Positions 12,691-54,677 of a stretch of 64,000 nucleotides of DNA are shown piece by piece. The stretch lies in contig JBEWZL010000077.1 of the NCBI GenBank assembly GCA_045837725.1, positions 496,001 to 560,000 on the forward strand. Direction: 5' to 3'. Origin of the DNA: Vermamoeba vermiformis. Lineage: Eukaryota. The notes beneath the pieces are model-generated. The model ran no database searches. It was not told the DNA's origin and worked only from the letters and a program-made list of their open reading frames with translations. Numbering within the stretch: the first letter of the stretch is position 1; each line of letters opens with the position of its first letter. A program made the position numbers and the translations under genes.

Positions 12691-12969
12691 TTATTTCTTA
12701 GCAGCAGCAGACTCGATTTCGGTCAAGAAACCCTTTCTGTCAACAGTTTTGATGTGAACATTGGGGTCGACGACGGGCTTGGATTTGTCAACGGTCTCGG
12801 CGTGCTTGAGCTCGTGAGGGGCAGTAACTTCGTTCAAGAAACCACTTCTGTCGACGGTCTTAATGTGGACATTAGGGTCAACAACAGGCTTGGATTTGTC
12901 AACAGTCTCGGCGTGCTTGAGTTGGTGGTCCTTGGTGACTTCTTGGAGAAGAGCGTTGTGGTCGGCCAT
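12691..12969 (-). CDS. Actobindin (G-actin-binding, tandem WH2/thymosin-like repeats)
   Basis: 92 aa, intronless, with a duplicated LKHAETVDKSKPVVDPNVHIKTVDR unit typical of amoebozoan actobindins. Confidence 0.9.
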   Translation of the reverse strand: MADHNALLQEVTKDHQLKHAETVDKSKPVVDPNVHIKTVDRSGFLNEVTAPHELKHAETVDKSKPVVDPNVHIKTVDRKGFLTEIESAAAKK

Positions 12970-16943: not shown

Positions 16944-19295
16944 CTACACACGTTCGTAACGATCTTCATTTGGATTGGACAACAAGCCCCGTCGTTCCGG
17001 ATCATTCGATCGCTTTTTGCACCAAAAAACGAGGCCGACAACTACAGCAGAAATAACAGCGCCAGTACCACCAATAAGAGCTACAAGACAAAGAGTCAGT
17101 AATCGTAATTATTGATAACAATAACCAAAAATTCATCATTGATGCTTACCGAATTTGCTCAAACCACCGGGTTGTGCACTAGGTGTAGGTACAGTGACAT
17201 TGTGCGAGGGTGTGTTGACGGGTGATTTGACAGGCGACATGACAGGTGCCATGATCGGGGCTTTGACAGGTGGATAGGGGCTCTAACAGGCGGCATGACA
17301 GGTGCTTTGACAGGTGACATGACAGGTGCGCTGACAGGTGCGCTGACAGGTGCCATGATCGGGGCTTTGACGGGTGGCATGACAGGTGCGCTTACAGGTG
17401 CGCTTACAGGTGCGCTTACAGGTGCACCCTTGCAATTCTGGGTGAGTTGATACACTTTGTATCCAACTTGGGGTTGGAAGGCCGGCCCCTGACGGGGCAC
17501 AAAGGCCAGCAATTGATCACAGCTCATGGCTTTAACTTGGGCTACCGTCATGTTGTTGATCTGAGCGTTTGTGATGTTTGGAATGACCGAAGGTTGAAGG
17601 CCTGAAATGCCGTAGGGACTGATGACGCCAAACGCAGTAGCAGGAATTTGCATCAATTGCGTGCCGTTGAGAGCACTGGCAGTGTCATTGATGAGGTACG
17701 ACGCTTGACTCGTGTTGAGCAATGAGAAAACAGCAGGAGCCATGTGTTGGACTTGATCAATACGGAGACCCATCACCGCTGAAGGAGGCAGTTCTGTCAT
17801 GAACTTTGAGTCCAAGTCCTTGCTAAGCTTTGGGTCGAGAAGTGCTAATTGAAGCCACGTTGATTGTGACACTGGCCTGGGATCCCAGGTGGTCCAATTA
17901 GTGTTCTTCACAATCGTTGGTATGAAGAATTTGAAATCTAATAAAGTTCGGTTAATACGTGCTCAAATAGAGATTGTCATATTAACTTACAGGAAGCACT
18001 GGCCATCGGGTATTTATAGGTTTGTGAGATTGTCCAATTGTAGATGAGGTCAGTGCCAAGGGTAATTGAGACAATACCAAGTTGATTGGCTGTCATACCA
18101 CCAAGATTTGAGTAATACGGCGACAGATTCAGAAGCTGATCAAGAGATGCAGCTTGAATTACAAAATTTGAAACGCTTTTGAGTTGCGTGTTAAAGCCTG
18201 CAAATGCAGCAGGAGGGATCTTTGTCAGCTGATTTGTACGTATGAGAGTAAAAATCTGTTCATTAGTCACTTCAATGCAATCAGCCGTGAAGCCAGTGAA
18301 AGCGTTCGGAGTCATTGAACCGACGAAGTTGTACATCAATCCACTGCACGCATTAGCCATATTTTGCAAGCACGCAGAAGTCATGCCTGAAGCACTTGTC
18401 TCAGGAAGGGCGTACACTTGATTGGCTGTGAGGCCTGGACAAGAGTTGGGGTTAATAAACTTAAGTTGGCCAGCTTGAATGCGCGTGAATGCCGCTGATG
18501 GGATCAGCTTAATACATGCAGCAGAAAGGCTCGAGAATGCATCAGTTCCAATTCCAGACAAGAAATCTGCTTGAAATCCCGCACAAGGTGAAGCTTTCGT
18601 GGTCGTGTCGAAGTTATTAACGCAAAATCCCCTGAGACCGGATGCAGCTTCCGCAGGCATGTTTTTGATGTGCGAGCTATTCAATCCGCCACAAGCCTCG
18701 TTATTGAGATTGCTGAGATCGTATAGGTTGATGAGCGAAAAAATGTCGCCGGGGCTATTGGCTACGCATTGCTTCGTCCATCCAACAAACGTCTGAGAGT
18801 CTGCCTGCGCAACAAAACCTGCCTTGAGACCAGAGCAGGATAAGGGAGGCAACTCGGTTAAGCAAGTAGCTATAAGTCCTTTGCCAGTAGTGTTTTGCAA
18901 GCTAGCCAATTGCGAAGCTTTGAATCCGGCACAAGCTAACGGATTTAACCATAGTAATTGAGCAGCAGCAAGAGCAGCAATGGAGGCGTCCGGAATCGCG
19001 TTTAATTGATCCGATCGAAAGCCAATGCACGCCTATAGTTAAAAAATTAATAATTAAAAAAAAAAATCGATCTCGATCTAAAGTTGGATGGATCAGGATT
19101 TACGACCCGCTCATATTAAATTGAACTTACTCCGACAGGAATAGATGCCAGCTGCTCCGGAGTAATTGTTGCGAAATCATTCGCTGGTAGATTGCTCAAT
19201 TGCGTTGCGTTGAGGGTGTTCCAATTCACGCAGTAGCCGGTGCCGAATAGGGCCAAAGAAATGACTAAATAAATCGAATACGATTCGCGATGCAT
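16944..19295 (-). CDS. Type I membrane protein with ~24-aa Cys/Leu repeats, PVSA/PVM stalk and endolysosomal sorting tail; apparent frameshift in the stalk
   Basis: Signal peptide MHRESYSIYLVISLALFGTGYC, repeats like L..IP.AAF.G.T..Q, and TM ALIGGTGAVISAVVVGLVFWC. The tail has ERRGLL and a terminal YERV. The frame breaks at ~17274. Confidence 0.7.
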
Positions 19296-25800: not shown

Positions 25801-27918
25801 ATGAACAAGTTGCACCTTGTCGTCGTTTTAATCGCATCCTTGTTGGTTCTTGAAGCCTTCGCCGCTATCAAGCTCCCTCTCTACCGTAATAAGAACCCTG
25901 CTAAAAAGAGAGCCAACGCTCCTCTTGGTGGCGGTATTTCTACTGCTGGTGAATTTTACGTCCAACTCCAAGGTAAATCCTCGATGCGAGAAATAATTAG
26001 ATTCAAGACCAAATTCGTCAAAAATATTCAAACAAATTTTGATACTAATAAACGGTATTAGTTGGTACTCCCCCACAAACCTTTGAGGTTCAAATCGACA
26101 CTGGATCCACAGATTTGTTGATCTACGACGATAGATGCCAGAACTGCGACGACAAGAACTACTACACCCCTAGTGCTTCTTCCAGTGGTAAGCACAATAC
26201 TGATACCAAGTTAATAAATTTATTGATTTGTGCAACGGTAATATTTTACCGATCGCCGCTTTCAGTACAGAATAATAAACTGATTTATTTTATTTTTAAA
26301 TAGCTTCTGCTGTGGCCTGCAACATGTTCCCGTAAGTTCGCTTAGAGCATCGTCCTTCAATTCCATATTTTTGGAGCTAACTTAATTTTCTAGATGCCCT
26401 TCTTGCGGTAGCAACAACCAATGCACTTTCGACGATGCCTATGTAAGATACTACGACATGTGCACGAAATATTGTAATGGGAGCCTTACATTTTTATTCT
26501 AGGGTGACGGTAGTGATGTGAACGGTCGCGTCTTCTACGACACTTTGACTTGGGGTGGTTTGCAAGCCAACATCACTCTCGGTGCCATTGATTCATCCAC
26601 CGCTCACTTCGAACCTGTAAGTAACGGCTCCCGTCATTCGGGCGATGCTAGACTGAACCGCATCTGATCTCAAATTACCTATTTTAAATAATATTATTAT
26701 TACCCGGTTCGAATGTTCTTGCTAATAATTATTGCTATAGACCGGTGTTGATGGTATCTTCGGTCTTGCCTTCAAGACTTTGAGCTCTTGGACTGGTACG
26801 TACAATTAATATTAATTCAGATCGAGCATTTTACTTACCGAATATTAACCTAGGTCAATCCGCCTTTTGGAACTGGGCTTCTCAAAACAACTTGCCTCGC
26901 GTCTACTCTATGTGCTTGACTCCTTCTGGTCCCTCTATGACCATCGGTGAAAACAAGGCTTCTCAATACCAATGGACTCCTATTCTCCAAAACACTTACA
27001 TGGTTGGTAAGTATATTATTATTTAGGCATTCGTTCGCGCTCTATGATATTTAATAATTATTAATGCAAATGGATCGCGTTTTAATATTTTAAAATTTAG
27101 TTGCTATGTCCGACATCCAAGTGAACGGCAAATCCATCTCCAACGGCAACGTGTTCAAGAGAACTCAAACCATCGTTGACAGCGGTACCACTTTGATGAT
27201 CATTCCTACCTCTGCTTACACTGGCTTCTCCAACATCTTGTTGAGCATGTGCAACAACGGCGTCAACTTGGCTGGTATTTGCGACCAATCTGCCAACAAC
27301 TCTTTGTTGGCTGGCAACTGCTTCGCTTTGCAACCTAGCGACATTACTCCTTATCCTTCTGTCACTGTCAACATCAAGGGTATCAAGCCTCTCGTTTTGA
27401 CCGGTCAAGATTACATGATCACTCAAGTCTCCCAAGGCGTCACTTACTACTGCTTGGGCATCCAAGGTGCTGATAGTAAGTACTCCAGCTTAATATAATA
27501 TTATTTGGCTCGTTTATTGCGGAAAATTCGAAGCAAAAAGTTTCGATCGGATGTGGTTTGTTGGTGCGGGTTCTAGTTATGATGGCAAGTAGTGACCCGA
27601 ACACTCAGATACGAGGCGTCTCGGGCACGACCACACTAACAAGAATGCACCGCTTCCCGTCCGATCAGCGAAGTTAAGCTTGTTCAGGCCTTCTTAGTAC
27701 TGGGGTAGGAGACTACCTGGGAATCGGAGGTGTTGTGCTCTTTACTTTTTTTTACTTTTTGCTCTAACTAGCAATATCTATCTTACTGGTCCTAACCTTG
27801 TTTTTTCATAGTGGGTGGAGTTGGTACTATCCTCGGTGACGTTTTCATGCAAAAGTTCAACATTGCTTTTGACTTCGATAAGAACCGCGTTGGTTTCGCT
27901 GACGTTTCTACTTGCTAA
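25801..27918 (+). CDS. Secreted pepsin-family (A1) aspartic protease, multi-exon
   Basis: Signal peptide, catalytic DTGS and DSGT, YGDGS flap, DGIFGLA, ILGDVFM. Confidence 0.92.
27623..27741 (+). rRNA. 5S rRNA gene, inside intron 27476-27811 of the aspartic protease gene
   Basis: 119 nt. GGGCACGAC.. pairs with ..GTTGTGCTC. Conserved 5S motifs CCCGTCCGATC, GAAGTTAAGC, TTAGTACT and GGGAA are present, followed by an oligo-T Pol III terminator. Confidence 0.95.
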
Positions 27919-32842: not shown

Positions 32843-34425
32843 ATGAAGACCACAAGAGTCGTTTTCATATTATTTATAGCGATTTTGAATGGCTGAAGCT
32901 CAGCGCAGTTAGCGGCAATTGTGAATGGATCTTGGAGCACTTTTTTTGGCGGTAATTTCTACATGTGCGCGGATGAGGCGTCTGGCGAAGTCAACGTAAG
33001 TCGATCATATTTAATTAATTGTATTAGAGTCGTTTGTTAGCGATACTAAAGAATTCTAACGGATGCGGATGTACCTCAAAAAATCTTGATCGTTAATGAA
33101 CCGTTTAGGATTGATTTTTGAATTACAGAACTTGGATACGTAAAAGGGACTATTAGCGGCGAATATGTCCTCGGGCAATGGTTTCAAACAGGTTTGAATG
33201 TCGCGGATCTGGATGGCAACTGCTGTACTGCTAACCGAGGCACTTTTATGTTCCATTTCGCTGCAAATTCATTTACTGGTAAGTCCCTTATTTTTTGGGC
33301 GTACATTTCGTTCATGAAAGAGCCGTAAATTTCAATTTCTAACCGGATCGAACTTTACTTAAATTTTTTTAGGAAGTTATACGTTCGAAGTAAAAGATAA
33401 GGGTGGTGAGTTATGGAGTGGTACTAGACAAAGCAGTTATAATCCTTTGCCGTCTGAATGCTGGAGTCCAAAAGAAACTTTGACCAACTCGCTTCACGGC
33501 AGATGGAGCTCGGACTACACGAACTATTGGGACCAATGCATCGATGATAATGGACGGTGGACTGCGTCGTATGAATATGGTCTTCCTGTTACTCGTGGGT
33601 ACATCTATGGGTAAGTACCAGCGAATCCGATCTCGCTTTCGAAATTTAGAGATCAATTCCTTGAAATTTAATCGACCTAAAATCGCTTTGAATGAATATT
33701 CAAGTCATAATTAATCATATTTATGCCATCGTTATGCTGAAAAGATTGTCAGTGTCCGAATTTTTTTGAATCAAAAACAAGATCTTCGTTGGATTTTAAG
33801 GCAATGTATAGTAATAGCACTAATATATGTCTATAGACAATGTTTTTTCAACAATCAGCTCTGCCACGGCGATTGGTTCGAGCCCAACAAAGTTACAGGC
33901 GGTTACATGGCCCGATTGCTCGCCAACGATGAAATGATTGGAACTTGGTGGCAATTCAACGCGTCTGATATCGATGATAAGACATATATTAGATATCATA
34001 CTGATTCGTCGTATCATGGAGTTGATTCTCGAACGAGAATAGGAGATCCAATGATGTGTAACAGAAACGCGGATTTGTTTTTCGATCCAAACGCACCCAC
34101 GCTCAGTGTCGGTGCTATTGTTGGCATATCAGTTGGTGTATCTGGAGGTAGGCGATGAAATACATTTCAAGCACCAGATCTCGAGCAAAAAATTCGATTT
34201 AAAAATGGATTCGATCCGTTTTATTCCGACCATACTGACGCAATTCATTATTCAGCCGTTATTGTTACTGGTATAGTACTGCTGTGCATATACTGCTGCA
34301 ATCCTTGCAAAGACGGTGGTGGCAAAGGCGGCGGAGGTCTCAAAATATTTTCTAAATCCACAACAAATACTCGACGAAGCGGATTTGGTTCTAACCACAC
34401 TAGATTTGGCGGAGGCTACTCGTAA
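32843..34425 (+). pseudogene. Type I membrane/secreted protein with two Trp/Cys-rich beta repeats; in-frame TGA in the signal peptide
   Basis: MKTTRVVFILFIAILNG*SSAQ.. with TGA at 32894-32896; repeated GxW..C..GY..G..GxWF motif; TM GAIVGISVGVSGAVIVTGIVLLCIYCC. The first intron phase is not cleanly resolved. Confidence 0.55.
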
Positions 34426-34843
34426 TGTGCTCATGAATTCCGGCTGCAATGTCACGCGTGGCATTCTTGTACTGTACTTTTTTTTCTACATTTGTACTAA
34501 AATCGGTCGCTGATGCTTCTCTTGTTTCAGTAACTTGCCATTTCTGCTTTCTTGCCTATTGTTGCTAATCCGATCGGATTTTAAAATCGGATCTGCTGAT
34601 CTCCCGCAATGTGAAAGGACTGCTCACTTTTCTGATGAACTATGCTGTCCAATGACACTAGTTCCATCAATAAGATTTCTGGCAATATGCAGCTTACAGA
34701 GGCCTAGACTTTGTGGTACCAGCGTGTATGAAATTTGTGGAGTTGTGAGAAAGCGTTAAGAAAAGTCTTTTATCGGTCCCAAAAATTTTGTTCTCTGATC
34801 TTGGAGGCGTGTTCTTAACGAGGAAGTGATGCAACAATGTTTT

Positions 34844-35174
34844 GGAGATGCGGTCCTGCTACAATTCATCATTACATTACTGCTTCATTAGCGTTTGTGA
34901 GGCGTATGGTAATGTGGTGGTGAAGGGTGGCTTGGTGTGCTCTAATTCGTTATCCTAGCAATAGGACCATAGAGTGCGACAAGTTAATCCCCGAATAAAC
35001 GCGGGTGCACACGGTTCCTCGGTTATATTGTTGGATCCGCGAGGATCTGATAGTACAATTACTCTGAATTCAAAGTATTTTCACTCGAGACAATAGCTTG
35101 TGAATTTCTAGCTTGAAGGAGCAATCTGGATAGTTGGTTATTTCCGCCCCTTAGGGGGTCGCATCTTCTTTTTT
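34844..35174 (+). ncRNA. Unidentified highly structured ~325-nt RNA, probably Pol III-transcribed
   Basis: The 5' GGAGATGCGGTCCT pairs over 14 bp with the 3' GGGGTCGCATCTTC, which is followed immediately by T6. There are several long internal G-U-containing helices, two capped by GNRA loops. It is intergenic and the ORF track lists nothing there. Confidence 0.75.
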
Positions 35175-35337
35175 AATTGACATTTTTTTAGTGTAGTTGT
35201 GGCAGCTTAACAATTAGTTTGTTAACTGGATGCAAGTTTAATATTATGCTAATATTTACATTTTTGTACAAAATTGTTTTGGCGGCAGCAAATAAATAAC
35301 AAGGAATTCTATACAAGTTAGAAATGACCATTTTTGG

Positions 35338-38300
35338 TTATTTCAAGCAGAAGCTAGGCAAGGTCAGTGCTTGAATTTCCGGTGCACGTGGCATTGATGT
35401 CGGGAACTTGATTGCTTTAGACTCGGCGATTTCAATGGTGCTGCCCAAGACGTTACCACTCAGCACCATGAGGTGATCTTTTGATTTTTTCGAACTGCTA
35501 GAACTCGCGCCATTCTCTTGTTCGTTGACAGGCTTGTTGATTTTCAACGTGCACTTGCCTTCTAATACACCTTCGAACCATTTGCCTTCGATGGTCGTGC
35601 CATTAACGTCAACAAACACGCCGGGACCGTGTGGCTTGTCATCTTTGAAACTACCCTCGTAGCGCGAGCCATTGACTAGGACTAATTGACCCTAAGCACA
35701 ATATCACTATTAGTCATAATGATCGTACGAATGAGTTTGACACGTGTCATTGGACCAGTCAATTTTTTTGTATGACACGTGTCAAAGTGTCACTTCGTGA
35801 CTCATAAACTCCGAAGTGTCAAAATGAGTGCTACTTACTTGACCGCTCTTGACATCACGGACCCACTCGCCAGTGTATTTCAGTGAACTGGAGCCAAAAT
35901 AGTAAAAAGTGCCTTTGCCGTGTCGCTCGCCAGTGCGCCACTGACCCTCGTACTTGGAACCATCGCGGTACTTCACTGTACCGTTGCCGTCGTACTTTCC
36001 TTCAAAGAACGTGCCGACATAGACTGTGCCGTCTGAATTAGTTTGGTCTAATGTGCCTTGGCCGTGTCGCTAAAAAGAATAAAAAATTAGATCACATCCG
36101 TAGTCAAGATCGGTCATAAATTATTAAAATACGGAAAAATCATTAGTTCAGTATTTGTATAAGTATTTCCTTATTAAGAAAGTGAGTTTTTGTACCTTAT
36201 TGTTAGCCCATTCACCGACGTAGTTATCGCCATTGACCCGGATCAAAGTGCCAGTACCGTGTTTGAGACCATATTGCCACTGCCCATCGTATTTTTTGCC
36301 CGATGGATGCACTAATGTGCCTTTGCCGTGGAACTGACCGCGCTGCCAATTGCCTTCGTAGCGCATGCCATTGCTCATGGTCAAGGTACCGAATCCGTCG
36401 AACAGATCTTCTTTGAATGAACCTTCATATACATCGCCGTTCTTATACTTTAAGGCACCTCGTCCATCCTTCTTGCCGTTCAGCCATTCGCCTTCGTAGA
36501 CATTGCCATACGGATCCGTAAAAGTTCCTTGACCGCCTATAAAACGAAACTCGCTTAGTCATCATATAAATAATCTATAAATGGTAAAATATGCTAAATA
36601 TTGTTTCGTAAAAACAAATTTTGAATTTAGATTAATATTTCCAAATAAAGCAATATTTTTTCAATATCGCATCTACAAATTTCAGATCGTATTTGATCGT
36701 CTATCTGACTATTATAAATATATATTGTTACTTACTAGGCGAGTCATCTTTCCACGCTCCCTTATATGCACTGGCAGTGAAGTAGTTCATCGTGCCTTGT
36801 CCGTTCTTTTTGTTGTTTTTCCATTCGCCGACGTATTTATTGCCCATGTGCGTCCAAGTACCAACTCCGTGGCGCTAAAAATAGGCTCATAAGAATATAT
36901 TCTAAGAGTACGATGTTATTATAAGTTACTTACGGTACCGTCGCTCCACCAGCCTTCGTAAACAGATCCGTCGTTATAAATAAACTTGCCGTAACGACGT
37001 TGGTCATCTATTACAGGATATATTAATACATGATAGTAAATAATAATAAGGTTGCTATATTTACCTTTCTTATACTTCAAGGCTGCTAAAATATAGCCGA
37101 GCAGATCTTGCATCCAACCGGCTTTTTCTTCAGGGCTTGTGCAATAGACTAAAGAAATTATATTTTAGATATTTATATCGAATATATCAACAATGGTATA
37201 GACTTACTTATATAGGCATTATCAGGACCAATAATTTCGAATGAGAAGTCGATGCTATTCGCTGCATGAAAAAGTTTTAGTTTATAAAATAGAAACGATC
37301 GTATACATATTATTTAATATGATGTATATTACTTACGATGATCTTTAATCCATACGAGCTTCAAAGGCCATTGGTACTTTGCTTTATGCGGCTTGATCTT
37401 CTTTTTCGGATTTTCATTCTTGATGAGAATATCACTAAACAATGCAAATTGTAGTTGATATCGCTTAGAAGTAGCCATGACTTCAGCAGTGACTATTCCG
37501 TCGCGAATAAATTGGCGGTGAGGCGCTACAAAGCTCTGCATGCCGAGATCGAGGACTTTTTGAGAGTTCTGTTGGTTTCGAACGAAAGAGTTGATATGAT
37601 CTGTGCGATAAAATAACGTTATTAATATGCATATTAAGTTAAAACTTGCAAATTTTTCCGTCGTATCGAGATCCAGATCGTTACAAATGCGCTGATTTTT
37701 GGATCGAGTACGAAAGAGCATAAAATTAAGTGAATAAGATAAGTATACTTACCAGCAATATCTTTCATCTTATTTAAAGAGTCTTCTATATTTTTGTAGT
37801 CTGGATGCGAATCTACGGTATGTTTCAGCAGATCGCGCAGAAGCAATTCATAGCGAGGAATGCGCTGAACAGGCTTGATTAAGAATGCTTCAACATCATT
37901 GCCAGCCTTCTTTCTAAGATCTTCTAATAAATCGTTCGTCTTCGGTGAGTCGCGTAATTTCTTCAAAACTTCGAGTGCGTTGTTATAGTTGCTTGCATAG
38001 GCTGTATACATCTTCAAAAATGGGGCCTAGATATTATTACGATTAAATTAGCCGTAAATTAAAGAAAAAAAGTCAGCTGGTTCATTGCTCCATCCGCATC
38101 CGAAAATTATTTTTAAAATTTGGCTTTGAATTGTGACTTACTAGTTTCAAAAATATAGGTCCTAACAGTTGCATAGGTCCCCAACTATCTATACAAGTCT
38201 TCAGCTCTTTGTAAAACTCCGAATTGAACTGCAGAATGACTTCAATATTTGAAAATAAAGCCTTGAAATCTGCATCGGAGAGGTATTTGTCCTTAACTAG

Positions 38301-48156: not shown

Positions 48157-49993
48157 CTAGCAAGCATCGACTTCAGTAGCCAAGTTGTTAAATGCAGCGT
48201 TGATATTTGAGTTGATGATGCATGTCTGAAAATAATAATTAATTAATTAACAAAATAGGAGAATAAAAGATCCGGATCGCATCTCCAAATCTCGTTTCGG
48301 GTACTTACTGCACCACCACCGCGATTACGCTGAGACGTCATACGATTAATATCACCGATACAAGTCACATAAGGGTTGCTGCGAATGTGTTTGTTCGAGC
48401 TCATAGGAGAGACGGCCCATTTGGCATGATCTTTCGTTTCGCGGAAGGAAATTGACGAATCAAACGTGACTTGCTTAACATTCATAGTCTTATAACTACC
48501 ACTACATTCGCTAGGCATCAATGGTCGCTAATTATTGAAGTTAGATCTCGTTACAAATAAAAAGATCGGATTTGAATCTGAACTTGAAAACGAAACTTAC
48601 GCCCCAACTTTCGACAATAAGATTGGCCTTATAATAAGGTGCCACCAAGTCGTCATAAAGGTCTTGATCCCAGGCTTTATCCTTGGCAAAGTCGGTGAAA
48701 AGAACTCCGCCGGCAGAATATACGTTAGTGATGTTGTTAGTGACTGTCTTGCCCTATAATACATAATAGTATTAATATTAGTACCGAATGTATATTTTTG
48801 GCGCCTAGATCTGGTAGCCATAAGCACAAAAGTAGGATTTGGAACACGTACCGATTCAGAAACGAGCTGCGCGAAATATGAATAGGCATTTCCGACATTA
48901 TTAGGAATCGCCGATGCATATACGAAAGGATTATTGATGATATATTGGCCGGCAATTTGGTTCAACTGATCGATGCCTACATCCGCCAAACAGATCCGTT
49001 AGAACAAGTTCATAGTCTGTATATATGTTCAACATACCCATAGTAATGCAAAGCAAGGTCTGTCCATAGACTCGCTCGTTGTCAGGGAACGAGTAACCGC
49101 CGTTGGATGGATCCTCAGGAAAGCGAGGAATACTGTGGCGTAAAAAGAATCCACCGTTCATATCTAACGTCATAAGGCCCTATATCATGATATTATATGA
49201 GTTGATGTAAGCTTAAAAATCCCTTTTCAGGCCGATCGAGTTGGAAAGATCTCGTTCGAATTGAAAAGTCCGCAGCATAATGCTAAACGTCCTATTAGTA
49301 GGGATTATACCTTGGCATGAGCTTTGGTGCTAGTCTTATGACCATCAGGAGACTCGTCTAATTAAGAACAAATTAAGTCCCTGAAAATGCCGAGCAAATC
49401 CGTTGCTATAATCTCTTACCATTCCACATAATATAGCCAGATGGATTGCTATAAAACGGATTCAATGTTGCTGATAAGGCCGAGTTGTTATCATCGAGGC
49501 TCTTGGTTGAGATCTGAGAGAAAGATATCTCCGATTAGATCTACCCTCGTAATCTATCAGACATTGAGACTAACCTTCCACTGGGCAGATGTATATGTAT
49601 TGGCATCTATATATGCATACGATGTGCCTGCTTCAGCTCTTTTAGCATCCTCAGGAAATTTGTAGGTGATCCTGGTTGATCAAAAAAATCCCGTTAGAAA
49701 ATTGAATTACTTTATTTATAAAAATATTATTCTAATTGATAAATAAATGTAAATACGATAATCATCGGTACAATCAAATTTATCTCTCTCTAGTATTTAA
49801 TTTAATATCGGATCAATGGGACACGCACGACACGACATTATTAATTAGGATAGGATCATAATAATAATTACCACCAATCTACAGGAGCACCACTAAAATC
49901 ATCACGGCACGTAAACGAGTCCGCAATGCAGATTTGTAATTGACAAGCGCAGATCAACGCCAAGCCAATTAACAATCGCTGTGAAATAGCCAT
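48157..49993 (-). CDS. Deoxyribonuclease II (acid DNase, PLD family), copy 1
   Basis: Signal peptide, PVDW, AHAKG and DHAKW catalytic motifs, GFFLRHSIPRFP, YGQTLLC, CIGDINRM.SQ..RGGG. Confidence 0.93.
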
Positions 49994-50370
49994 CGTCTCG
50001 TCGATTCAGATCAACCTCCGATCTAAATTATAGCGTAGTGTTGAGTAACACTGCGCCGAGCTGAAGGGTTAAAAAATAATGGTACCGCCGATAATCGCTT
50101 GGGACTTCAGTTCACCAATGGAGTCTAAAAATAGCCCCTTGGAATATTACTATCATGATTAATGTAAGTAGTTTGAATGGCAAGATGGCTGGCCAATCAA
50201 AGCAGCATCCGTAGGTGACCCCTGAATCCACTTTCATGAACTGTTTGGCAATAAAAGGTTATTATTTATGCCTCAATAATAGCGTGGAATGCCATCTCGA
50301 TAGAACTCCAAAACAGCGCTCGAAATCCTCAAGTTCTTAATGTACAAAGATGGGTTTATTGGTTATTGGC

Positions 50371-52129
50371 CTAACAAGCGTCTACTTGACTGACCAAGTT
50401 GTTGAATGCAGCATTGATGCATGGATTAATAATACATGTCTGGAAGAATAACGAATGAGTAAAAAGTTTTTTAAAAGATCGCTCAAAAAAGCGAATAAAA
50501 GATCCACGTCGCATCTGAATCTCGTTTCGAGTACTTACTGCACCACCACCGCGCCTACGCTGAGACTTCATACGATTAATATCACCAATACAAGTCACAT
50601 AAGGGTTGCTGCGGATGTGTTTGTTCGAGCTCATGGGAGAGGCAGCCCATTTAGCATGATCTTTTGTATCTACGAACGATATCGTCGTATCAAATGTTAC
50701 TTCTTGAACATTCATAATATTGTGGCTACCATCGCATTTACTTGGCATCAGCGGACGCTTTGAATTGAAAATTAGATCCGGTACAAAGGCTCCGTTACAA
50801 AGGAGGTAAAAGGGTTGAATTTGAAATGAAATACTGTTTGAAACGAAACTTACACCCCAACTCTCCACAATAAGGCTAGTTCTATAATAAGGCGCCACCA
50901 AGTCGTCGTACAGATCTCGATCCCACGCTCTATTCTTAGCGAAGTCGGTGAAAAGAACTCCGCCAGCGGAGTATATATCAATGATGTTTGTAGCAGCTTT
51001 TTCCTGCTATAAGCGGTTAAAACAGGTTAATTCAAAATTAGCAAGATCTAACGTACCTGAACTTCAACCTCTCGTGCGTGCTTTTTCGCCAGCTTAATAA
51101 GCTCCCTAAAGGAAGTAAACTGGCTATCGATATCACCAGGCACCATATGTGCGTAAACATAAGGATTGTTGATGATGTACTGGCCAGCAAGCTGGTTTAA
51201 CTGAGCCGCTTCTAGATCGCCATACAGATCCGTTAGCTATCAGAGCTCGTGCCATACGCATCCTATACATACTCATAGTAATGCAAAGCAAGGTCTGGCC
51301 GAAGGTTTGTCCGCTTTTCGGGAACATGTAACCGCCTCTTGATGGATCCTCTGGAAATCCAGGAACACTGTGTCGTAGAAAAAAGCCTCCATCGTTATCG
51401 AAGGTCATAATACCCTGTTATATAATCACGTAAGTGTATATTCATGATAGAGAGACGGTCGTAGAATAGATGCAAGACAAAGCGACGAGATCCCGAAGAA
51501 TTAATTGGAACACGAAATTGAAAAGTCGGCAGAAATATCGAATAACGATTGCCATTAATTACGATATCGTACCTTAGCATGAGCTTTAGAAGAGGTCTTG
51601 TAGCCATCAGGAGCTGCATCTACAGTTGACAAATTTAGACCGCATCCAGTTTGGACCATTAGACCTTCTTACCATTACACATAATATACCCCGTTTGGTT
51701 GCCATACATCGGTATTAATGTAGCTGCTAAGGCTGAGGTCTCGTCGTTTAGATCCTTGCCCGAGATCTAATGAAATGTTTGACATCGTTCGAGTCCAACG
51801 AATATGCCCAACAAAACTAACCTTCCATTGGCTCGATGTATAAGTATTAGCATCCATATAAGCATAAGATGTGCCTGATGGAAACTTATACGTAATCCTG
51901 AAATATTAATCGTTAACTCAATCTGTGACACTTGAAAAAACAATTCAAATATTGCTTATTTTGAATTATTTAAGTGCTATAATAATTACCACCAATCTAC
52001 TGGAGCAGCGGAAAAGTCATCGCGGCAAACAAAAGTGTCAGCAACGCAGATGTGCATCTGGACCGCGCAGAGCAACGCCAAACTGAGCAAGAACCGCTCG
52101 TAGTCAGTCATCCTGCTACTAAGAGTCAT
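50371..52129 (-). CDS. Deoxyribonuclease II, copy 2 (tandem paralogue)
   Basis: Same motifs and matching exon layout as copy 1 (AHAKG, DHAKW, CIGDINRMKSQRRRGGG). Confidence 0.93.
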
Positions 52130-52392: not shown

Positions 52393-54677
52393 CTATTTCT
52401 TATCGACGCCAATACCGGGCTTATTCCAAGGTGCAATTAAGCCATAAGCTTCGCTTCCAAACTTCGCCCAGGGGATCGCCTGCAGCATGTCATTAGATCC
52501 AGTATCTTGCGACCTGGATATGTTCGCTAGTTATATCAAGTATAGCTTACTGTTACTGGATCAGACGTGTCTTTAACTAAAAGAGAGCCATCAAGATCTC
52601 CACCGACACTGGCAAAAAACGAGCGGGTCAGATCCGGAGTTAAAAGGAACAATAGGCTTACGTAGATAGTGGCAGTAAGTGCAAATGAGCCACAGTACTG
52701 AGACTGCTCGCAACCATCATGCCAATCCAAACCTAGTGCATTAAATTTAGTGATATCACGTAACCATTGTTGAAGTGGATCTTGCAAGACGTTTATACAC
52801 GAACAACATTGCTTTAGAAGCGTTGAATCGTGGGATTAATACTTGCGTCGGGACCTATGACCAGTATGCAATATACGTACCTTCTTATTCAGCTCTTGAG
52901 CTTTCAAAATTGTTCGCACAGCCTCCCGGTAGCCTCCGGCTTTATCCATCTTGACATTCGCTCCATCAATAATATCCTAATAAATATGTCATTAATATCT
53001 AATGTATATTCATTATGGAAACGAATCACAATGGTACCTTTAGTTCTTCAACTTGCGTCGCGTTGTGGATCGACTCATCCGCGAAGATCAAAATGCCGTG
53101 CTTTGAGTACTCTTGACGCACCACTTTCCATTCCTCGAATTCTTCTGGCGTTAAATGCGCCGAGAAAGGTTGTTCGAGCATATAACAACGCGTGAACGGA
53201 TGTTCTTTGTTAAGTACCACGTTGTGCAAGAACTCCATGGCAACAGCGGGAGTCCAATCGGAGTTGGCATCAATAGACCACTAGTATCTGCCGTTAGATA
53301 CGCATTTGATAACTATATAGCGACGTACCACGTAGTCAGACACGTGCGGATCCACTTTTTCCTTGAAGAGTTGCACGAGTCTATTAACGATTTGCGAACC
53401 TTTAATTGACCGTTAGTTATGCTCTTAATAAATATGCAAATGTTTTAGTACCTAGGGCGATGTCTCTGTTTAACTTAATCTTAATGTTAGGCGTGTATTG
53501 CAAGCCAAAAGTAGTGGCTTCGACGATCAGATCGATTTCTTTGTTCAAAGCAGCGGTATAAAAGCCTCTCTTCTTCGTGGGCTCGGTGCCAATAAGCTCA
53601 TATATCTACATTAAATGTGAGTTCATATAAAAGAACAACAGAAGGCACGTACAGGTTTGTGAGTGATCTTGCCCCACGCGTCGAACAACGCAATCTCCAC
53701 GGCATTTCGTGCAGTACAGCTAAACTTCTCGGCATTCAACGGGCACTCATCGAGGGCCCTAAACTAAAGTTAGAACCGAACAAAAAGGAAAATGAATCCA
53801 GATGCGCAACTGTCTAAAAATGAGCTTCAGAAATGCCGTAGAGAACACGCGTAATAATTGAAAGGTCATCGGCAGTAATGCCGCATACGTAAGGAACAGC
53901 AGCGAGTTCTTGCAAAAAGCAAAAAAGAAACTGGCCTAACTCGGATTCGAACCGAGGACCTCCCGCTTACTAGGCGGGCGCAATAACCAACTATGCTATT
54001 AGGCCGTTGTTGGTGCGACTTTTTGAAAAGACGTGGTGGCGTCTCGTTCAATAAGAAATTACCTGAAAAACGCTCGTAGGGCCTTGATCTGCGCGCTATC
54101 GTTATCTTTGACGTTCATCGAGGTGAAATATTTGTTGTCAAAACCATTGAACGGATTGTAAGCGGCTGACTCGGCTACGGAAGTAACCTCTTTGATCTGC
54201 ACGCGTGTCAGGACGGTTCTATGGAAATACAAGCTTACCTTTTTGTCCAAAGCTTCGATGTATGTCTTAATGTCGTTGAAGTCTGCATAGTAGACACCTG
54301 GTTTCTTCGGTGGAAGGCCGCATTCGCCCAATCCGCTTATTGAGCCAACCTATGCTCGCTGTTATTTTTCGCTTGTTGCATAAATTAAATTATATCGATA
54401 TGAATGCGAATTGAGTACCTCAACAATTATCAGAGCATTTAAACGCGAATCTGAATAAGAGTGGCTTGTTCTGCACAAATCAACTATTTAATAAGCATAT
54501 TGCTGTTATTCGTATTGCAGTATTAATTTATAAACATTTTACGAATTATCTATCGAGTTGTAATTACCCAAAAGTCGAGCGCAATTGTAACGGTAACTCA
54601 ACCAAGCGCAGTGCAAGATCTACGCCTTCGCACTTGTATGTTGCACTAAATACTGTATTGCTTTGACTGGTGCTCAT
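52393..54677 (-). CDS. Enolase-superfamily dipeptide epimerase (L-Ala-D/L-Glu epimerase family), multi-exon
   Basis: The spliced protein has LPLQLRSTFGTSH..GECGLP, KIK, IDAN, LEQP, ADES, NVKMDKAGG and DLDG. These are the KxK/D/E/D/K and DLD signatures of the family. Confidence 0.85.
53932..54005 (-). tRNA. tRNA-Thr(AGT), inside intron 53759-54062 of the epimerase gene
   Basis: Cloverleaf with acceptor GGCCTAA/TTAGGCC, anticodon arm CCCGC-CTAGTAA-GCGGG and T arm CTCGG-TTCGAAT-CCGAG; oligo-T terminator downstream. Confidence 0.95.

What the first reader, a model, noticed from the sequence alone, without database searches (positions are those of the whole stretch)
34844..35174. Unidentified ~325-nt highly structured RNA gene with 5'/3' closing stem and oligo-T terminator
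Seen in sequence: a 14-bp helix joins the first and last nucleotides, directly followed by TTTTTT. A 16-bp helix (34865-34880/34909-34924) extends into a further stem. A segmented hairpin at 34929-34985 is capped by TCCTA-GCAA-TAGGA, and a 13-bp hairpin at 35026-35055 is capped by GCGA (both GNRA loops). A further stem GAATTCAAAG../..CTTGTGAATTT and a possible long-range pairing GGGTGG(34925)/CCGCCC(35144) are also present. The many G-U pairs favour a plus-strand RNA over a DNA palindrome. Established knowledge: a closing stem plus T-run is typical of Pol III RNAs. By eye it lacks the RNase P/MRP CR-I/CR-V motifs, the SRP helix-8 motif, a TTAGGG template, and group I/II or hammerhead cores. 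Inference: a novel or extremely divergent ncRNA. Its size and GGA start recall 7SK-like RNAs, but that is only a hypothesis.
Basis: partly seen in the sequence, partly recalled or inferred. Interest (0 to 1): 0.85.

Follow-up and report, generated by a model that had tools for sequence, protein, structure and literature searches.

The report
New structured small RNA of amoebae
This is a real, expressed gene for a roughly 320-base, tightly folded RNA of an amoeba; its fold is kept in a related species, but it matches no described RNA family, so it may be the RNA part of a cell machine not yet described.

Summary
The + strand of 34844-35174 folds far better than shuffles (z -5.58, against -1.56 for the - strand). 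A second, about 74% identical copy, found in a stray eukaryote-like contig (L001), keeps the fold: 80 pairs, 160 of 160 cells paired, and 13 pairs changed on both sides (slid controls 0-2). Both copies carry an exact Dictyostelium upstream sequence element (TCCCAAAA) at -67 to -60 and end in a T run. This marks an independent, polymerase III-type small-RNA gene of an amoebozoan. Contigs of three RNA libraries cover 34843-35163 and nothing beside it, and 20 of 24 listed runs from 14 studies hold at least half of its words. Rfam gives no credible match, and the features tested for RNase P, RNase MRP, SRP RNA, 7SK, U3, telomerase RNA, group I introns and ribozyme circles are not met. I read it as a new conserved RNA family, most likely the scaffold of an abundant ribonucleoprotein; its function is not shown. 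RNA contigs also contain head-to-tail joints (321 and 309 nt). These could mean a circular form, but assembly of rare chimeric reads explains them equally well.

The parts
34777..34784 (+). Upstream promoter element TCCCAAAA, an exact match to the DUSE consensus [AT]CCCA[AT]AA. It lies at -67 to -60 from G34844.
   Evidence: Sequence. The same octamer sits at the same offset in the homolog (L001:1212-1219, RNA start 1279). The consensus and the ~63 bp distance are from passages of PMC3188802, and ~60 nt from passages of PMC7919456. The motif is not enriched in the window as a whole (12 found, 12.4 expected for the looser WCCCAHAA), so the shared offset is what counts.
34844..35168 (+). RNA gene body, from the predicted start G34844 to the last paired base C35168 (325 nt).
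   Evidence: Fold z -5.58. The homolog keeps the structure. RNA-library contigs cover 34843-35163 only.
34844..34857 (+). P1, 5' strand of the closing helix (GGAGAUGCGGUCCU).
   Evidence: It pairs with 35155-35168. Helix 1 (which adds two pairs just inside P1) has 16 pairs: 4 changed on both sides and 5 on one side, none broken. The outermost 4 bp change from GGAG/CUUC to GAGA/UCUC in L001.
34865..34924 (+). Hairpin A, about 24 bp. It has an invariant 8-nt apical loop UAGCGUUU (34889-34896) and an invariant 3' bulge GUAU (34904-34907).
   Evidence: Helices 2 and 3: 24 pairs, 6 changed on both sides and 7 on one side, none broken.
34925..34930 (+). GGGUGG, invariant. It is a candidate partner of CCGCCC at 35144-35149.
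   Evidence: Both segments are identical in the two copies. The helix appears in the L001 MFE with probability 0.44, against 0.02 in the window. There is no covariation, so it is untested.
34931..34983 (+). Hairpin B: an outer stem, an asymmetric internal loop (AUUCGUUA / CCA), a 5-bp stem and a GCAA loop (34958-34961). It is the most conserved part of the RNA.
   Evidence: Helices 5 and 6: 19 pairs, 2 changed on both sides and 3 on one side. 29 nt are identical between the two copies. Summed depth is highest over 34933-34973 in run X4, which includes contigs of other organisms.
34984..35017 (+). Conserved core UUAAUCCCCGAAUAAACGCGGGUGCAC. It contains AAACGC (34997-35002), complementary to GCGUUU in the hairpin A loop; the palindrome GUGCAC; and helix C, GAAU (34993-34996) with GUUC (35014-35017).
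   Evidence: The core differs at 2 positions between the copies, and no variant is listed for 34988-35010 in the three runs with contigs. Helix C has one one-sided change. The pseudoknot is invariant and therefore untested (helix 4).
35026..35055 (+). Hairpin D: 13 bp capped by GCGA. In L001 it is 7 bp plus a 2x2 U/U loop, capped by GCAA.
   Evidence: Helix 8 has 2 one-sided changes. The variant 35048 T>C in all three runs with contigs turns G35033-U into G-C.
35080..35104 (+). Helix E (UUCAC/GUGAA), closing a conserved 15-nt loop UCGAGACAAUAGCUU.
   Evidence: Helix 9 has one pair changed on both sides. Besides one 3-bp helix seen in 4 of the 5 runs, it is the only helix of the 3' third recovered under all five alignment settings.
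35108..35137 (+). Hairpin F: CUAGCU/AGUUGG, an internal loop, GGA-GCAA-UCU.
   Evidence: It is present in the MFE of both copies. By eye, three one-sided changes on the 5' strand keep pairing with the invariant GUUGG. It is not in the MAFFT-based consensus.
35155..35168 (+). P1, 3' strand (GGGGUCGCAUCUUC).
   Evidence: See the P1 5' strand. RNA contigs stop at 35163, inside this strand.
35169..35174 (+). T6 run, a polymerase III-type terminator.
   Evidence: Sequence. L001 has T7 at the same place, 1607-1613.

Best explanation
34844-35168(+) is a single-copy, independently transcribed gene for a highly structured small RNA of about 321-325 nt. The organism is an amoebozoan. The RNA belongs to a conserved family that no library describes.

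Shown:
- The fold is significant on the + strand only.
- A second species keeps the closing helix P1, hairpin A, hairpin B and helix E through compensatory changes, while the loops and the core stay invariant.
- An exact DUSE octamer lies at -67 to -60 in both species, and a T run follows P1 in both.
- Contigs of RNA libraries cover the unit and not its flanks.

Inferred:
- Transcription starts at about G34844 under DUSE control and stops at the T run (polymerase III).
- P1 clamps the two ends.
- The invariant single-stranded elements are the working surfaces for proteins or tertiary contacts. These are the hairpin B internal loop with its GCAA cap, the hairpin A loop UAGCGUUU, the core AAUCCCCGAAUAAACGCGGGUGCAC and the helix E loop.

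I read the RNA as the stable scaffold of an abundant, constitutive ribonucleoprotein, rather than a guide or template RNA. The loop-core pairing GCGUUU/AAACGC may lock hairpin A onto the core.

I put 0.75 on 'a real gene of a new RNA family' and about 0.4 on the scaffold reading of its function.
For: Fold:
- z -5.58 on the + strand against -1.56 on the - strand.
- The homolog L001:1279-1613 has z -4.73.

Conservation of structure:
- RNAalifold predicts 86 pairs, 14 of them with compensatory changes.
- The curated structure has 80 pairs. 160 of 160 cells are paired, 13 pairs changed on both sides, the slid controls give 0-2, and 0 of 500 shuffles reach any measure.

Selection on the RNA only:
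- blastn gives 74% identity over 299 nt, and tblastx finds nothing in the flanks.

Promoter and terminator:
- TCCCAAAA lies at the same offset in both copies, matching the consensus and distance given in passages of PMC3188802 and PMC7919456.
- A T6 or T7 run follows the closing helix.

Expression and spread:
- 20 of 24 listed runs hold at least half of the 32 sampled words; 9 of the 20 are on record as RNA; they come from 14 studies.
- In X4, X6 and X16, depth is 0 in every bin outside 34810-35178, apart from the neighbouring gene in X6.
- Variants fit the helices: 35048 T>C makes G-U into G-C, and 34963 A>G makes U-A into U-G.

Copy number:
- One copy in the window and one in the 8.8-Mb assembly that holds L001.

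No known family:
-.

Taxon:
- The only named protein relatives are amoebozoan.
Against: - Only two full-length sequences were available, so the covariation rests on one species pair, and the 3' third is poorly aligned.
- Logan contigs cannot show ends, strand or level. The one raw-read run laid nothing: 0 reads in X21, so it is no test.
- The rest of the genome could not be searched. I could therefore not show that canonical SRP, RNase P and RNase MRP RNA genes exist elsewhere in it. U6 was not found in the assembly that holds L001, so no exclusion test was possible there either.
- The function is not shown by any result. The scaffold reading is an argument from abundance, conservation and the lack of guide or template features.
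- The RNA contigs stop at 35163, inside P1, although the last 4 bp of P1 covary. No explanation here fully accounts for this.
Confidence: 0.75

Rival explanations
1. The mature form is a covalently closed circle of about 321 nt. The primary transcript would be cut beside the outermost 4 bp of P1 and its ends joined, which turns P1 into a hairpin capped by GGAG (GAGA in L001). This adds to the main reading rather than replacing it.
For: One search shows three head-to-tail joints.
- 35163->34843 in X4 (321 nt, contig depth 127).
- 35163->34855 in X6, in a 339-nt contig whose two ends overlap by 30 nt, so it is a closed 309-nt cycle (depth 132).
- A diverged relative in X4 has 185 letters between 35010 and 34875. 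The way round the window's circle is 184-185 nt.

The two cut sites would each lie at or 1 nt before the 5' side of one strand of the covarying 4-bp helix GGAG/CUUC. This symmetry recalls sites of the splicing endonuclease (recalled).
Against: - The 5' side of the joint differs between runs (34843 against 34855), and the joints carry 1 and 3 ambiguous letters, as template switching would give.
- Heterogeneous circular-junction reads are reported for abundant small RNAs such as RNase MRP, RNase P and U3 in total RNA-seq (passages of PMC7464727).
- De Bruijn assemblers clip short dead ends. One rare chimeric path can therefore replace the true linear ends (recalled, not tested).
- The predicted start at the DUSE distance is the 5' end of the circle. 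That end would carry a triphosphate, which the known ligases do not join (established knowledge).
- There are no 3-nt bulges of a bulge-helix-bulge site and no ribozyme match.
- The circular fold is no more stable than the linear one: -105.2 against -109.2 kcal/mol for the same 321 nt.
Confidence: 0.22
2. It is an extremely divergent SRP RNA, RNase MRP RNA or RNase P RNA that the covariance models miss.
For: - Size, closing helix, terminator type and abundance fit these RNAs.
- SRP RNAs of whole phyla have escaped computational detection (abstract and passages of PMC4605306).
- Hairpin B, with its large internal loop, is followed by GUUAAUCCCC. This resembles a P3 helix followed by the MRP CR-I motif (7 of 10 letters; motif recalled).
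Against: - No Rfam family for any of these reaches E<=10 on 136-, 333- or 601-nt stretches.
- There is no AGARA (CR-II) and no GARAR loop. CR-I and CR-V match only with 1-3 mismatches, at places that are not conserved or are in the wrong order.
- The only partner for a P4 helix (GGGGG at 35154-35158) is taken up by P1, which is 19 bp in L001.
- The 5' end enters P1 directly, so there is no Alu-type 5' domain with a UGUNR motif (feature from passages of PMC4605306).
- None of the three GNRA hairpins has the conserved helix 8 loops (motif recalled).
Confidence: 0.08
3. It is the RNA client of the amoebozoan LARP7/MePCE pair. It would be either a 7SK-like regulator of transcription elongation or a polymerase III-type telomerase RNA.
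For: - LARP7 and Bin3/MePCE occur in Amoebozoa (passages of PMC7928011 and PMC8917221); those passages name no amoebozoan RNA partner.
- The size (about 325 nt), the 5' G, the snRNA-type upstream element and the U-run terminator are as in 7SK.
- Ciliate telomerase RNAs are polymerase III transcripts, and plant ones are polymerase III transcripts with a P1 closing stem (passages of PMC12133305).
Against: - There is no 3'-terminal hairpin next to the U tail, which LARP7 binds in 7SK (passage of PMC8917221).
- The GGAUC pair of hairpin D is not kept in L001.
- No 7SK family match.
- No C-rich stretch has one and a half repeats. The best candidate, AAUCCCCGAAU, differs at two positions in L001.
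- Depth is about 25 times that of the neighbouring mRNA in X6 (131.6 against 5.3). This is a poor measure, but it does not suggest a rare telomerase RNA.
Confidence: 0.1
4. It is a SINE, MITE or integrated copy of a viroid-like or retrozyme element.
For: The internal structure, a polymerase III terminator and head-to-tail joints in RNA contigs would fit such an element.
Against: - One copy in 64 kb and one in the assembly with L001.
- No self-cleaving ribozyme match and no CUGANGA core.
- The same promoter element lies at the same offset in two species whose flanks are otherwise unlike. This marks a host gene, not an insertion.
- The substitutions are compensatory.
Confidence: 0.03

Closest known systems
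DUSE-dependent small RNA genes of dictyostelid amoebae (spliceosomal snRNAs, Class I RNAs)
   Same: The exact octamer [AT]CCCA[AT]AA lies about 60-63 nt upstream of the start. The RNA starts with G, a stem joins the 5' and 3' ends, a T run lies downstream, and expression is high (passages of PMC3188802 and PMC7919456).
   Different: Class I RNAs are short (42 nt upward in the passage seen; about 65 nt at most from recall), with a short stem of about 5 bp and an 11-nt motif. This RNA is about 325 nt, with a 14-19-bp closing helix and at least six further helices. It has no Class I motif, and it matches no snRNA family. The organism's best named protein relatives are dictyostelids at only 73-74%, so it may lie outside Dictyostelia. 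The authors of PMC7919456 did not expect DUSE there.
7SK snRNA (metazoa)
   Same: About 330 nt, a polymerase III-type terminator, an snRNA-type upstream promoter, a 5' GGA start, an abundant and highly structured RNA.
   Different: There is no conserved GAUC-GAUC hairpin, no 3'-terminal hairpin and no family match. The two ends pair with each other.
RNase MRP / nuclear RNase P RNA
   Same: A P1 helix joins the ends; a hairpin with a large internal loop (P3-like) is followed by a conserved C-rich single strand; the size is similar; circular-junction reads are seen in RNA-seq (PMC7464727).
   Different: The P4 pseudoknot partners, the CR-II/CR-III or GARAR motifs and a family match are all missing.
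Polymerase III telomerase RNAs (ciliates, plants)
   Same: A polymerase III transcript of about 150-300 nt; in plant telomerase RNAs, a P1 closing stem and long distal stems (passages of PMC12133305).
   Different: No recognisable template, and apparent abundance.
Y RNAs and vault RNAs
   Same: Polymerase III transcripts whose 5' and 3' ends form a long terminal stem; abundant cytoplasmic RNP RNAs of unclear or regulatory role (recalled).
   Different: They are about 70-140 nt with a simple central loop, and neither Rfam family matches. This RNA is three times larger and multi-branched.

Membership tests
DUSE-driven small ncRNA gene (Amoebozoa) | [AT]CCCA[AT]AA about 60-63 nt upstream of the RNA start | tested here: met
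   TCCCAAAA lies at -67 to -60 in the window (34777-34784) and in L001 (1212-1219). The consensus is from passages of PMC3188802.
Polymerase III transcript | A run of at least 4-5 T directly after the RNA | tested here: met
   T6 at 35169-35174 and T7 at L001:1607-1613. Which polymerase acts was not tested.
Nuclear RNase P RNA | Match to RF00009; CR-I and CR-V forming P4; CR-II AGARA | tested here: not met
   No match at E<=10. No AGARA. CR-I matches only with 2 mismatches, at non-conserved places (motifs recalled).
RNase MRP RNA | Match to RF00030; CR-I GAAAGUCCCC pairing with CR-V; GARAR loop in P8 | tested here: not met
   No match. GUUAAUCCCC has 3 mismatches of 10. No GARAR. The GGGGG partner lies in P1.
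SRP RNA | Match to an SRP family; a 5' Alu domain with UGUNR between helices 3 and 4; helix 8 with a GNRA loop and conserved internal loops | tested here: not met
   No match to any SRP family. The 5' end enters P1 directly. No GNRA hairpin has conserved AGCA-type loops in both copies (helix 8 motif recalled).
7SK snRNA | A 5' hairpin with a conserved GAUC-GAUC duplex; a 3'-terminal hairpin before the U tail | tested here: not met
   GGAUC occurs twice, only in the window's hairpin D, and is not kept in L001. The 3' end is the P1 strand. No RF00100 or RF01052 match.
Telomerase RNA | A conserved single-stranded template of about 1.5 telomere repeats | tested here: inconclusive
   No tandem 1.5-repeat lies in a conserved single strand, and the C-rich core differs at 2 positions between the copies. 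The telomere repeat of the organism is unknown.
U3 / box C/D snoRNA | Box C RUGAUGA and box D CUGA near a terminal stem | tested here: not met
   No RUGAUGA without a mismatch. snoRNA matches score 12.8-15.5 bits, against gathering scores of 45-48.
Ribozyme-bearing circular RNA (viroid-like, retrozyme) | A self-cleaving ribozyme defining the unit ends; tandem or many copies | tested here: not met
   No ribozyme family at E<=10. No CUGANGA. One copy only. Head-to-tail joints are present.
Group I intron | A family match; a terminal G at the 3' end of the circle | tested here: not met
   No match. The joint lies after A35163 or U35164.
tRNA-intron-type circle (bulge-helix-bulge substrate) | Two 3-nt bulges flanking a 4-bp helix | tested here: not met
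   P1 is continuous on the inner side of GGAG/CUUC, with no bulges. Only the symmetry of the two joint sites fits.
SINE / MITE | Many dispersed copies with target-site duplications | tested here: inconclusive
   One copy in the 64-kb window and one in the 8.8-Mb assembly G001. The organism's whole genome is not held.

The most novel reading that the evidence does not exclude
A host-encoded, promoter-driven small RNA gene whose product matures into an abundant, covalently closed circle of about 321 nt. The circle would have a compact fold stabilised by GNRA loops. It would be made without backsplicing and without any known self-cleaving ribozyme, either by an endonuclease-ligase pair acting on the covarying 4-bp end helix or by the RNA itself. 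That would be a new class of circular structured RNA in eukaryotes.
Probability: 0.2. Interest if true: 0.9.

Novelty: categorically new. Interest (0 to 1): 0.72.

Why it matters
Abundant, strongly conserved structured RNAs of about 300 nt in eukaryotes have so far nearly all been parts of core machines: SRP, RNase P and MRP, 7SK, telomerase. An unassigned one, with a 29-nt block identical between the two species compared and words held by RNA libraries from soil, roots, biofilms and sludge, points to an undescribed ribonucleoprotein in free-living amoebae.

It may also give a candidate partner for RNA-binding proteins of Amoebozoa for which I know no RNA client, such as LARP7 and MePCE (their presence is from passages of PMC7928011 and PMC8917221; the lack of a known client is from recall).

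It also suggests that the DUSE promoter element, described in dictyostelids, works at the same distance in an amoebozoan whose best named relatives are only 73-74% identical in a conserved protein. That makes DUSE a usable handle for finding further RNA genes in this group.

If the head-to-tail joints are real, it would be a new route to circular RNA.

Tried and rejected
Searches for more homologs:
- Two scans of metagenome contigs with invariant 23-mers found nothing.
- Five scans of viral contigs were run. Four found nothing. One search gave four loci that all hold one phage coding stretch, sharing only the 18-mer; these are chance matches.
- One scan of genome contigs gave L001, the only homolog.

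Other copies:
- Short matches in G001 (E 0.39 or worse) are noise.
- nhmmer with the two-sequence profile finds only the locus itself in the window.

Exclusion through other RNA genes:
- U6 was sought in G001 and not found. The control genomes did not ring either, so this says nothing.
- The search for eukaryotic SSU rRNA gave a machine error and was not repeated.

Raw reads:
- X21 laid 0 reads, so it is no test.

Rfam near-hits were rejected as chance hairpin likeness:
- mir-1260b: 24.4 bits against a gathering score of 81.
- symR: 13 against 61.
- SNORD105: 12.8 against 45.
- snoZ118: 15.5 against 48, on the minus strand.

Structure ideas dropped:
- The window-only helix 34979-34986/35094-35101 is not kept in L001 (by eye).
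- A P4-like pairing of AUCCCC with GGGGGU conflicts with the P1 extension.
- The likeness of UUAUCCUA and GGACCAU to the snR30/U17 m1 and m2 motifs (recalled) does not hold up, because the RNA has no H/ACA architecture.
- UAUGG in hairpin A is not an 11-nt receptor, because there is no CCUAAG opposite it.

Other DUSE matches in the window (11 more) show no comparable unit downstream.

Papers:
- Aspegren et al. 2004 could not be read.
- PMC5804921 has only a methods passage on ncRNA annotation.
- Supplements were not opened.
- The statement that no such RNA is in print rests on searches only. None of them searched for the sequence itself.
Full report
**1. The observation**

- a 14-bp closing helix, 34844-34857 with 35155-35168, followed at once by T6 (35169-35174);
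- a long hairpin at 34865-34924;
- a segmented hairpin at 34931-34983, capped by UCCUA-GCAA-UAGGA;
- a 13-bp hairpin at 35026-35055, capped by GCGA.

Folded as RNA, the + strand gives -117.8 kcal/mol against -90.6 +/- 4.9 for 100 dinucleotide shuffles (z -5.58; 0 of 100 as low). The - strand gives z -1.56 (6 of 100). The signal is therefore strand-specific, as expected for an RNA with many G-U pairs and not for a DNA palindrome.

**2. No known family**

- Rfam at gathering scores finds only a 5S rRNA (27623-27741, +) and a tRNA-Thr(AGU) (53932-54005, -) in the window.
- With permissive filters and E<=10, the 601-nt stretch gives one junk match on the minus strand.
- The 136-nt core gives none.
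- The 333-nt unit gives three matches at 12.8-24.4 bits, against gathering scores of 45-81.
- Scans with recalled consensus motifs find no CR-II, no GARAR loop, no box C and no hammerhead core. They find CR-I and CR-V only with 1-3 mismatches, at places that are not conserved or are in the wrong order.

**3. The organism**

No whole genome is held. The window is eukaryotic: it holds RhoGEF, IBR/Ariadne, ATG2 and WH2-repeat proteins in split frames.

The only relatives that carry organism names are amoebozoan:
- actobindin of Tieghemostelium lacteum (52%) and Entamoeba nuttalli (42%), among 46 hits;
- Ariadne-like ligases of four dictyostelids (73-74%) and Arcella (63%), among 120 listed. Unnamed transcriptome proteins are closer, at 76-99%.

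I take it to be an amoebozoan that is not close to any named genome.

**4. A homolog, and what it shows**

An exact scan of 185,579 prokaryote species genomes with a 23-mer from hairpin B hit one 3069-nt contig (L001, 40.7% G+C). It is filed under a cyanobacterial assembly, has no long open frames, and is most simply read as a eukaryotic contaminant.

- L001:1279-1606 aligns with the window RNA at 74% identity over 299 nt. Nothing in the flanks is alike, even by tblastx.
- It is followed by T7, folds with z -4.73, and occurs once in that assembly.
- RNAalifold on the pair predicts 86 pairs, 14 of them with compensatory changes.
- For a curated structure of 80 pairs, all 160 cells form standard pairs and 13 pairs changed on both sides. 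With the 3' partners slid by 1-3 columns, only 38.5-50.0% of cells pair and 0-2 pairs change on both sides. 0 of 500 shuffles reach any measure.

Pairs changed on both sides, by helix:

| Helix | Pairs | Changed on both sides |
|---|---|---|
| P1 | 16 | 4 |
| Hairpin A | 24 | 6 |
| Hairpin B | 19 | 2 |
| Helix E | 5 | 1 |

Two sequences are few, and the tool warns that related sequences can exceed shuffles. The slid controls and the complete absence of broken pairs among 31 varying pairs are the stronger argument.

The loops behave the opposite way. The following are identical or nearly so:
- UAGCGUUU and the GUAU bulge of hairpin A;
- 29 nt of hairpin B;
- the core UUAAUYCCCGAAYAAACGCGGGUGCAC;
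- the helix E loop.

The 3' third is poorly aligned. Only helix E and one short 3-bp helix (in 4 of the 5 runs) are recovered there, and only helix E under all five alignment settings. Hairpin F is present in both single-sequence folds and is kept by one-sided changes.

**5. The promoter**

Both copies carry TCCCAAAA at exactly -67 to -60 from the first paired G (window 34777-34784; L001 1212-1219). This is an exact match to the Dictyostelium upstream sequence element:
- PMC3188802 (passages read) gives it as [AT]CCCA[AT]AA, about 63 bp upstream of many ncRNA genes.
- PMC7919456 (passages read) places it about 60 nt from the start, in front of both polymerase II and III genes.

In the window as a whole, the looser motif WCCCAHAA occurs as often as chance predicts (12 against 12.4). 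The evidence is therefore the identical offset in two copies whose upstream regions are otherwise unlike.

Together with the T run, this defines an independent transcription unit that starts at about G34844. The polymerase III assignment is an inference from the terminator.

**6. Expression**

- Of 24 runs listed, 20 hold at least half of the 32 sampled words. Nine of those are on record as RNA, and they come from 14 studies of roots, biofilms, sludge, wastewater and soil.
- Contigs of three RNA libraries cover 34843-35163. They have zero depth in every other bin of 34400-35600, except a weak contig on the downstream gene in X6 (5.3 against 131.6).
- Contigs show presence. They do not show ends, strand or level, and the raw-read run laid nothing.
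- Variants fit the fold: 35048 T>C (all three runs) makes G-U into G-C in hairpin D, and 34963 A>G makes U-A into U-G in hairpin B.
- In X4 the summed depth over 34933-35014 is 10-30 times that of the rest. It comes from contigs that run on into unlike sequence.
- One loose end of such a contig...GTTTCCGCAAGG, repeats the L001 form of hairpin D. Further lineages of the family therefore exist, and hairpin B plus the core is their common part.

**7. Head-to-tail joints**

One search shows three:
- X4 has a contig that runs 34980-35163 and straight on to 34843-34937, a 321-nt unit.
- X6 has a 339-nt contig whose ends overlap by 30 nt, a closed cycle of 309 nt (35163->34855).
- A diverged relative in X4 has 185 letters between 35010 and 34875, which is the length of the way round the circle in the window.

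If the ends were joined after GCA(U), P1 would become a hairpin capped by GGAG (GAGA in L001). The two sites would lie symmetrically beside the covarying 4-bp helix GGAG/CUUC.

Several points argue against a real circle:
- The 5' site differs between runs, and the joints carry ambiguous letters.
- The 5' end coincides with the predicted triphosphate start.
- There is no bulge-helix-bulge motif and no ribozyme.
- Such junction reads are reported for RNase MRP, RNase P and U3 in total RNA-seq (PMC7464727, passages).
- An assembler that clips short dead ends would let one rare chimeric path replace the true termini (recalled).

I give a real circular form about 0.2.

One point remains unexplained. 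The outermost 4 bp of P1 covary, yet no RNA contig contains 35164-35168.

**8. What it is and how it most likely works**

Shown: a strand-specific, structure-conserved, expressed, single-copy unit with a shared promoter element and terminator.

Inferred: a polymerase III transcript whose ends are clamped by P1. Two long arms (A and B) and several short GNRA-capped hairpins present invariant loops.

The invariance of single strands, set against freely covarying stems, is the signature of protein-binding or tertiary-contact sites. Two complementary invariant segments, GCGUUU in loop A and AAACGC in the core, could form a pseudoknot. GUGCAC in the core is a palindrome. Neither can be tested without variation.

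I commit to a stable RNP scaffold, at about 0.4 given that the gene is real. My reasons are that nothing resembles a guide (no C/D or H/ACA boxes), a template, or a known catalytic core.

**9. Comparison and novelty**

The gene type matches dictyostelid DUSE-driven small RNA genes. The RNA itself is closest in size and gene style to 7SK, and in layout (P1, a P3-like hairpin, a C-rich strand) to RNase MRP. It fails the defining features of both, and of SRP RNA, RNase P, U3, group I introns and ribozyme circles (see the membership table). Telomerase RNA cannot be fully excluded, because the telomere repeat is unknown.

My literature searches turned up no description of such an RNA. They were word searches and did not cover supplements.

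I rate it as a new RNA family of unknown function: a real finding of fairly high interest. Its function is the main gap, and the circular form is the boldest reading still open.

Noticed in passing
window 27623-27741 (+): A lone 5S rRNA gene (104.7 bits), followed by a T run. No DUSE-like motif was seen in the 143 bases read upstream of it.
   Followed up: partly
window 53932-54005 (-): tRNA-Thr with anticodon AGU, 70 bits.
   Followed up: no
window 12700-12960 (-): An actobindin-like gene with two WH2-type repeats (direct repeat D6, 85% identical). The best named relative is actobindin of Tieghemostelium lacteum at 52%.
   Followed up: partly
window 48288-50000 and 50518-52100: Four blocks repeat in the same order at a spacing of about 2.1-2.25 kb, with 75-83% identity. 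This looks like a tandem duplication of a gene-sized segment.
   Followed up: no
window 17193-17425: A 12-nt tandem repeat inside a long minus-strand frame that encodes APVS/APVM repeats.
   Followed up: no
run X4, an 847-nt contig that touches window 34905-34969: A contig much longer than the RNA shares only 65 nt of hairpins A and B (7 differences), then runs on for 255 unlike letters. It may be a chimera, or a longer transcript that carries the hairpin B element.
   Followed up: no
window 35006-35011 and L001 equivalent: The invariant palindrome GUGCAC lies in the single-stranded core, a sequence that could support loop-loop dimerisation.
   Followed up: no
L001 (whole 3069-nt contig): A contig filed in a cyanobacterial genome assembly looks eukaryotic: 40.7% G+C, no long frames, and an amoebozoan-type RNA gene with a DUSE. 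It is probably a contaminant from a grazer in the culture.
   Followed up: partly
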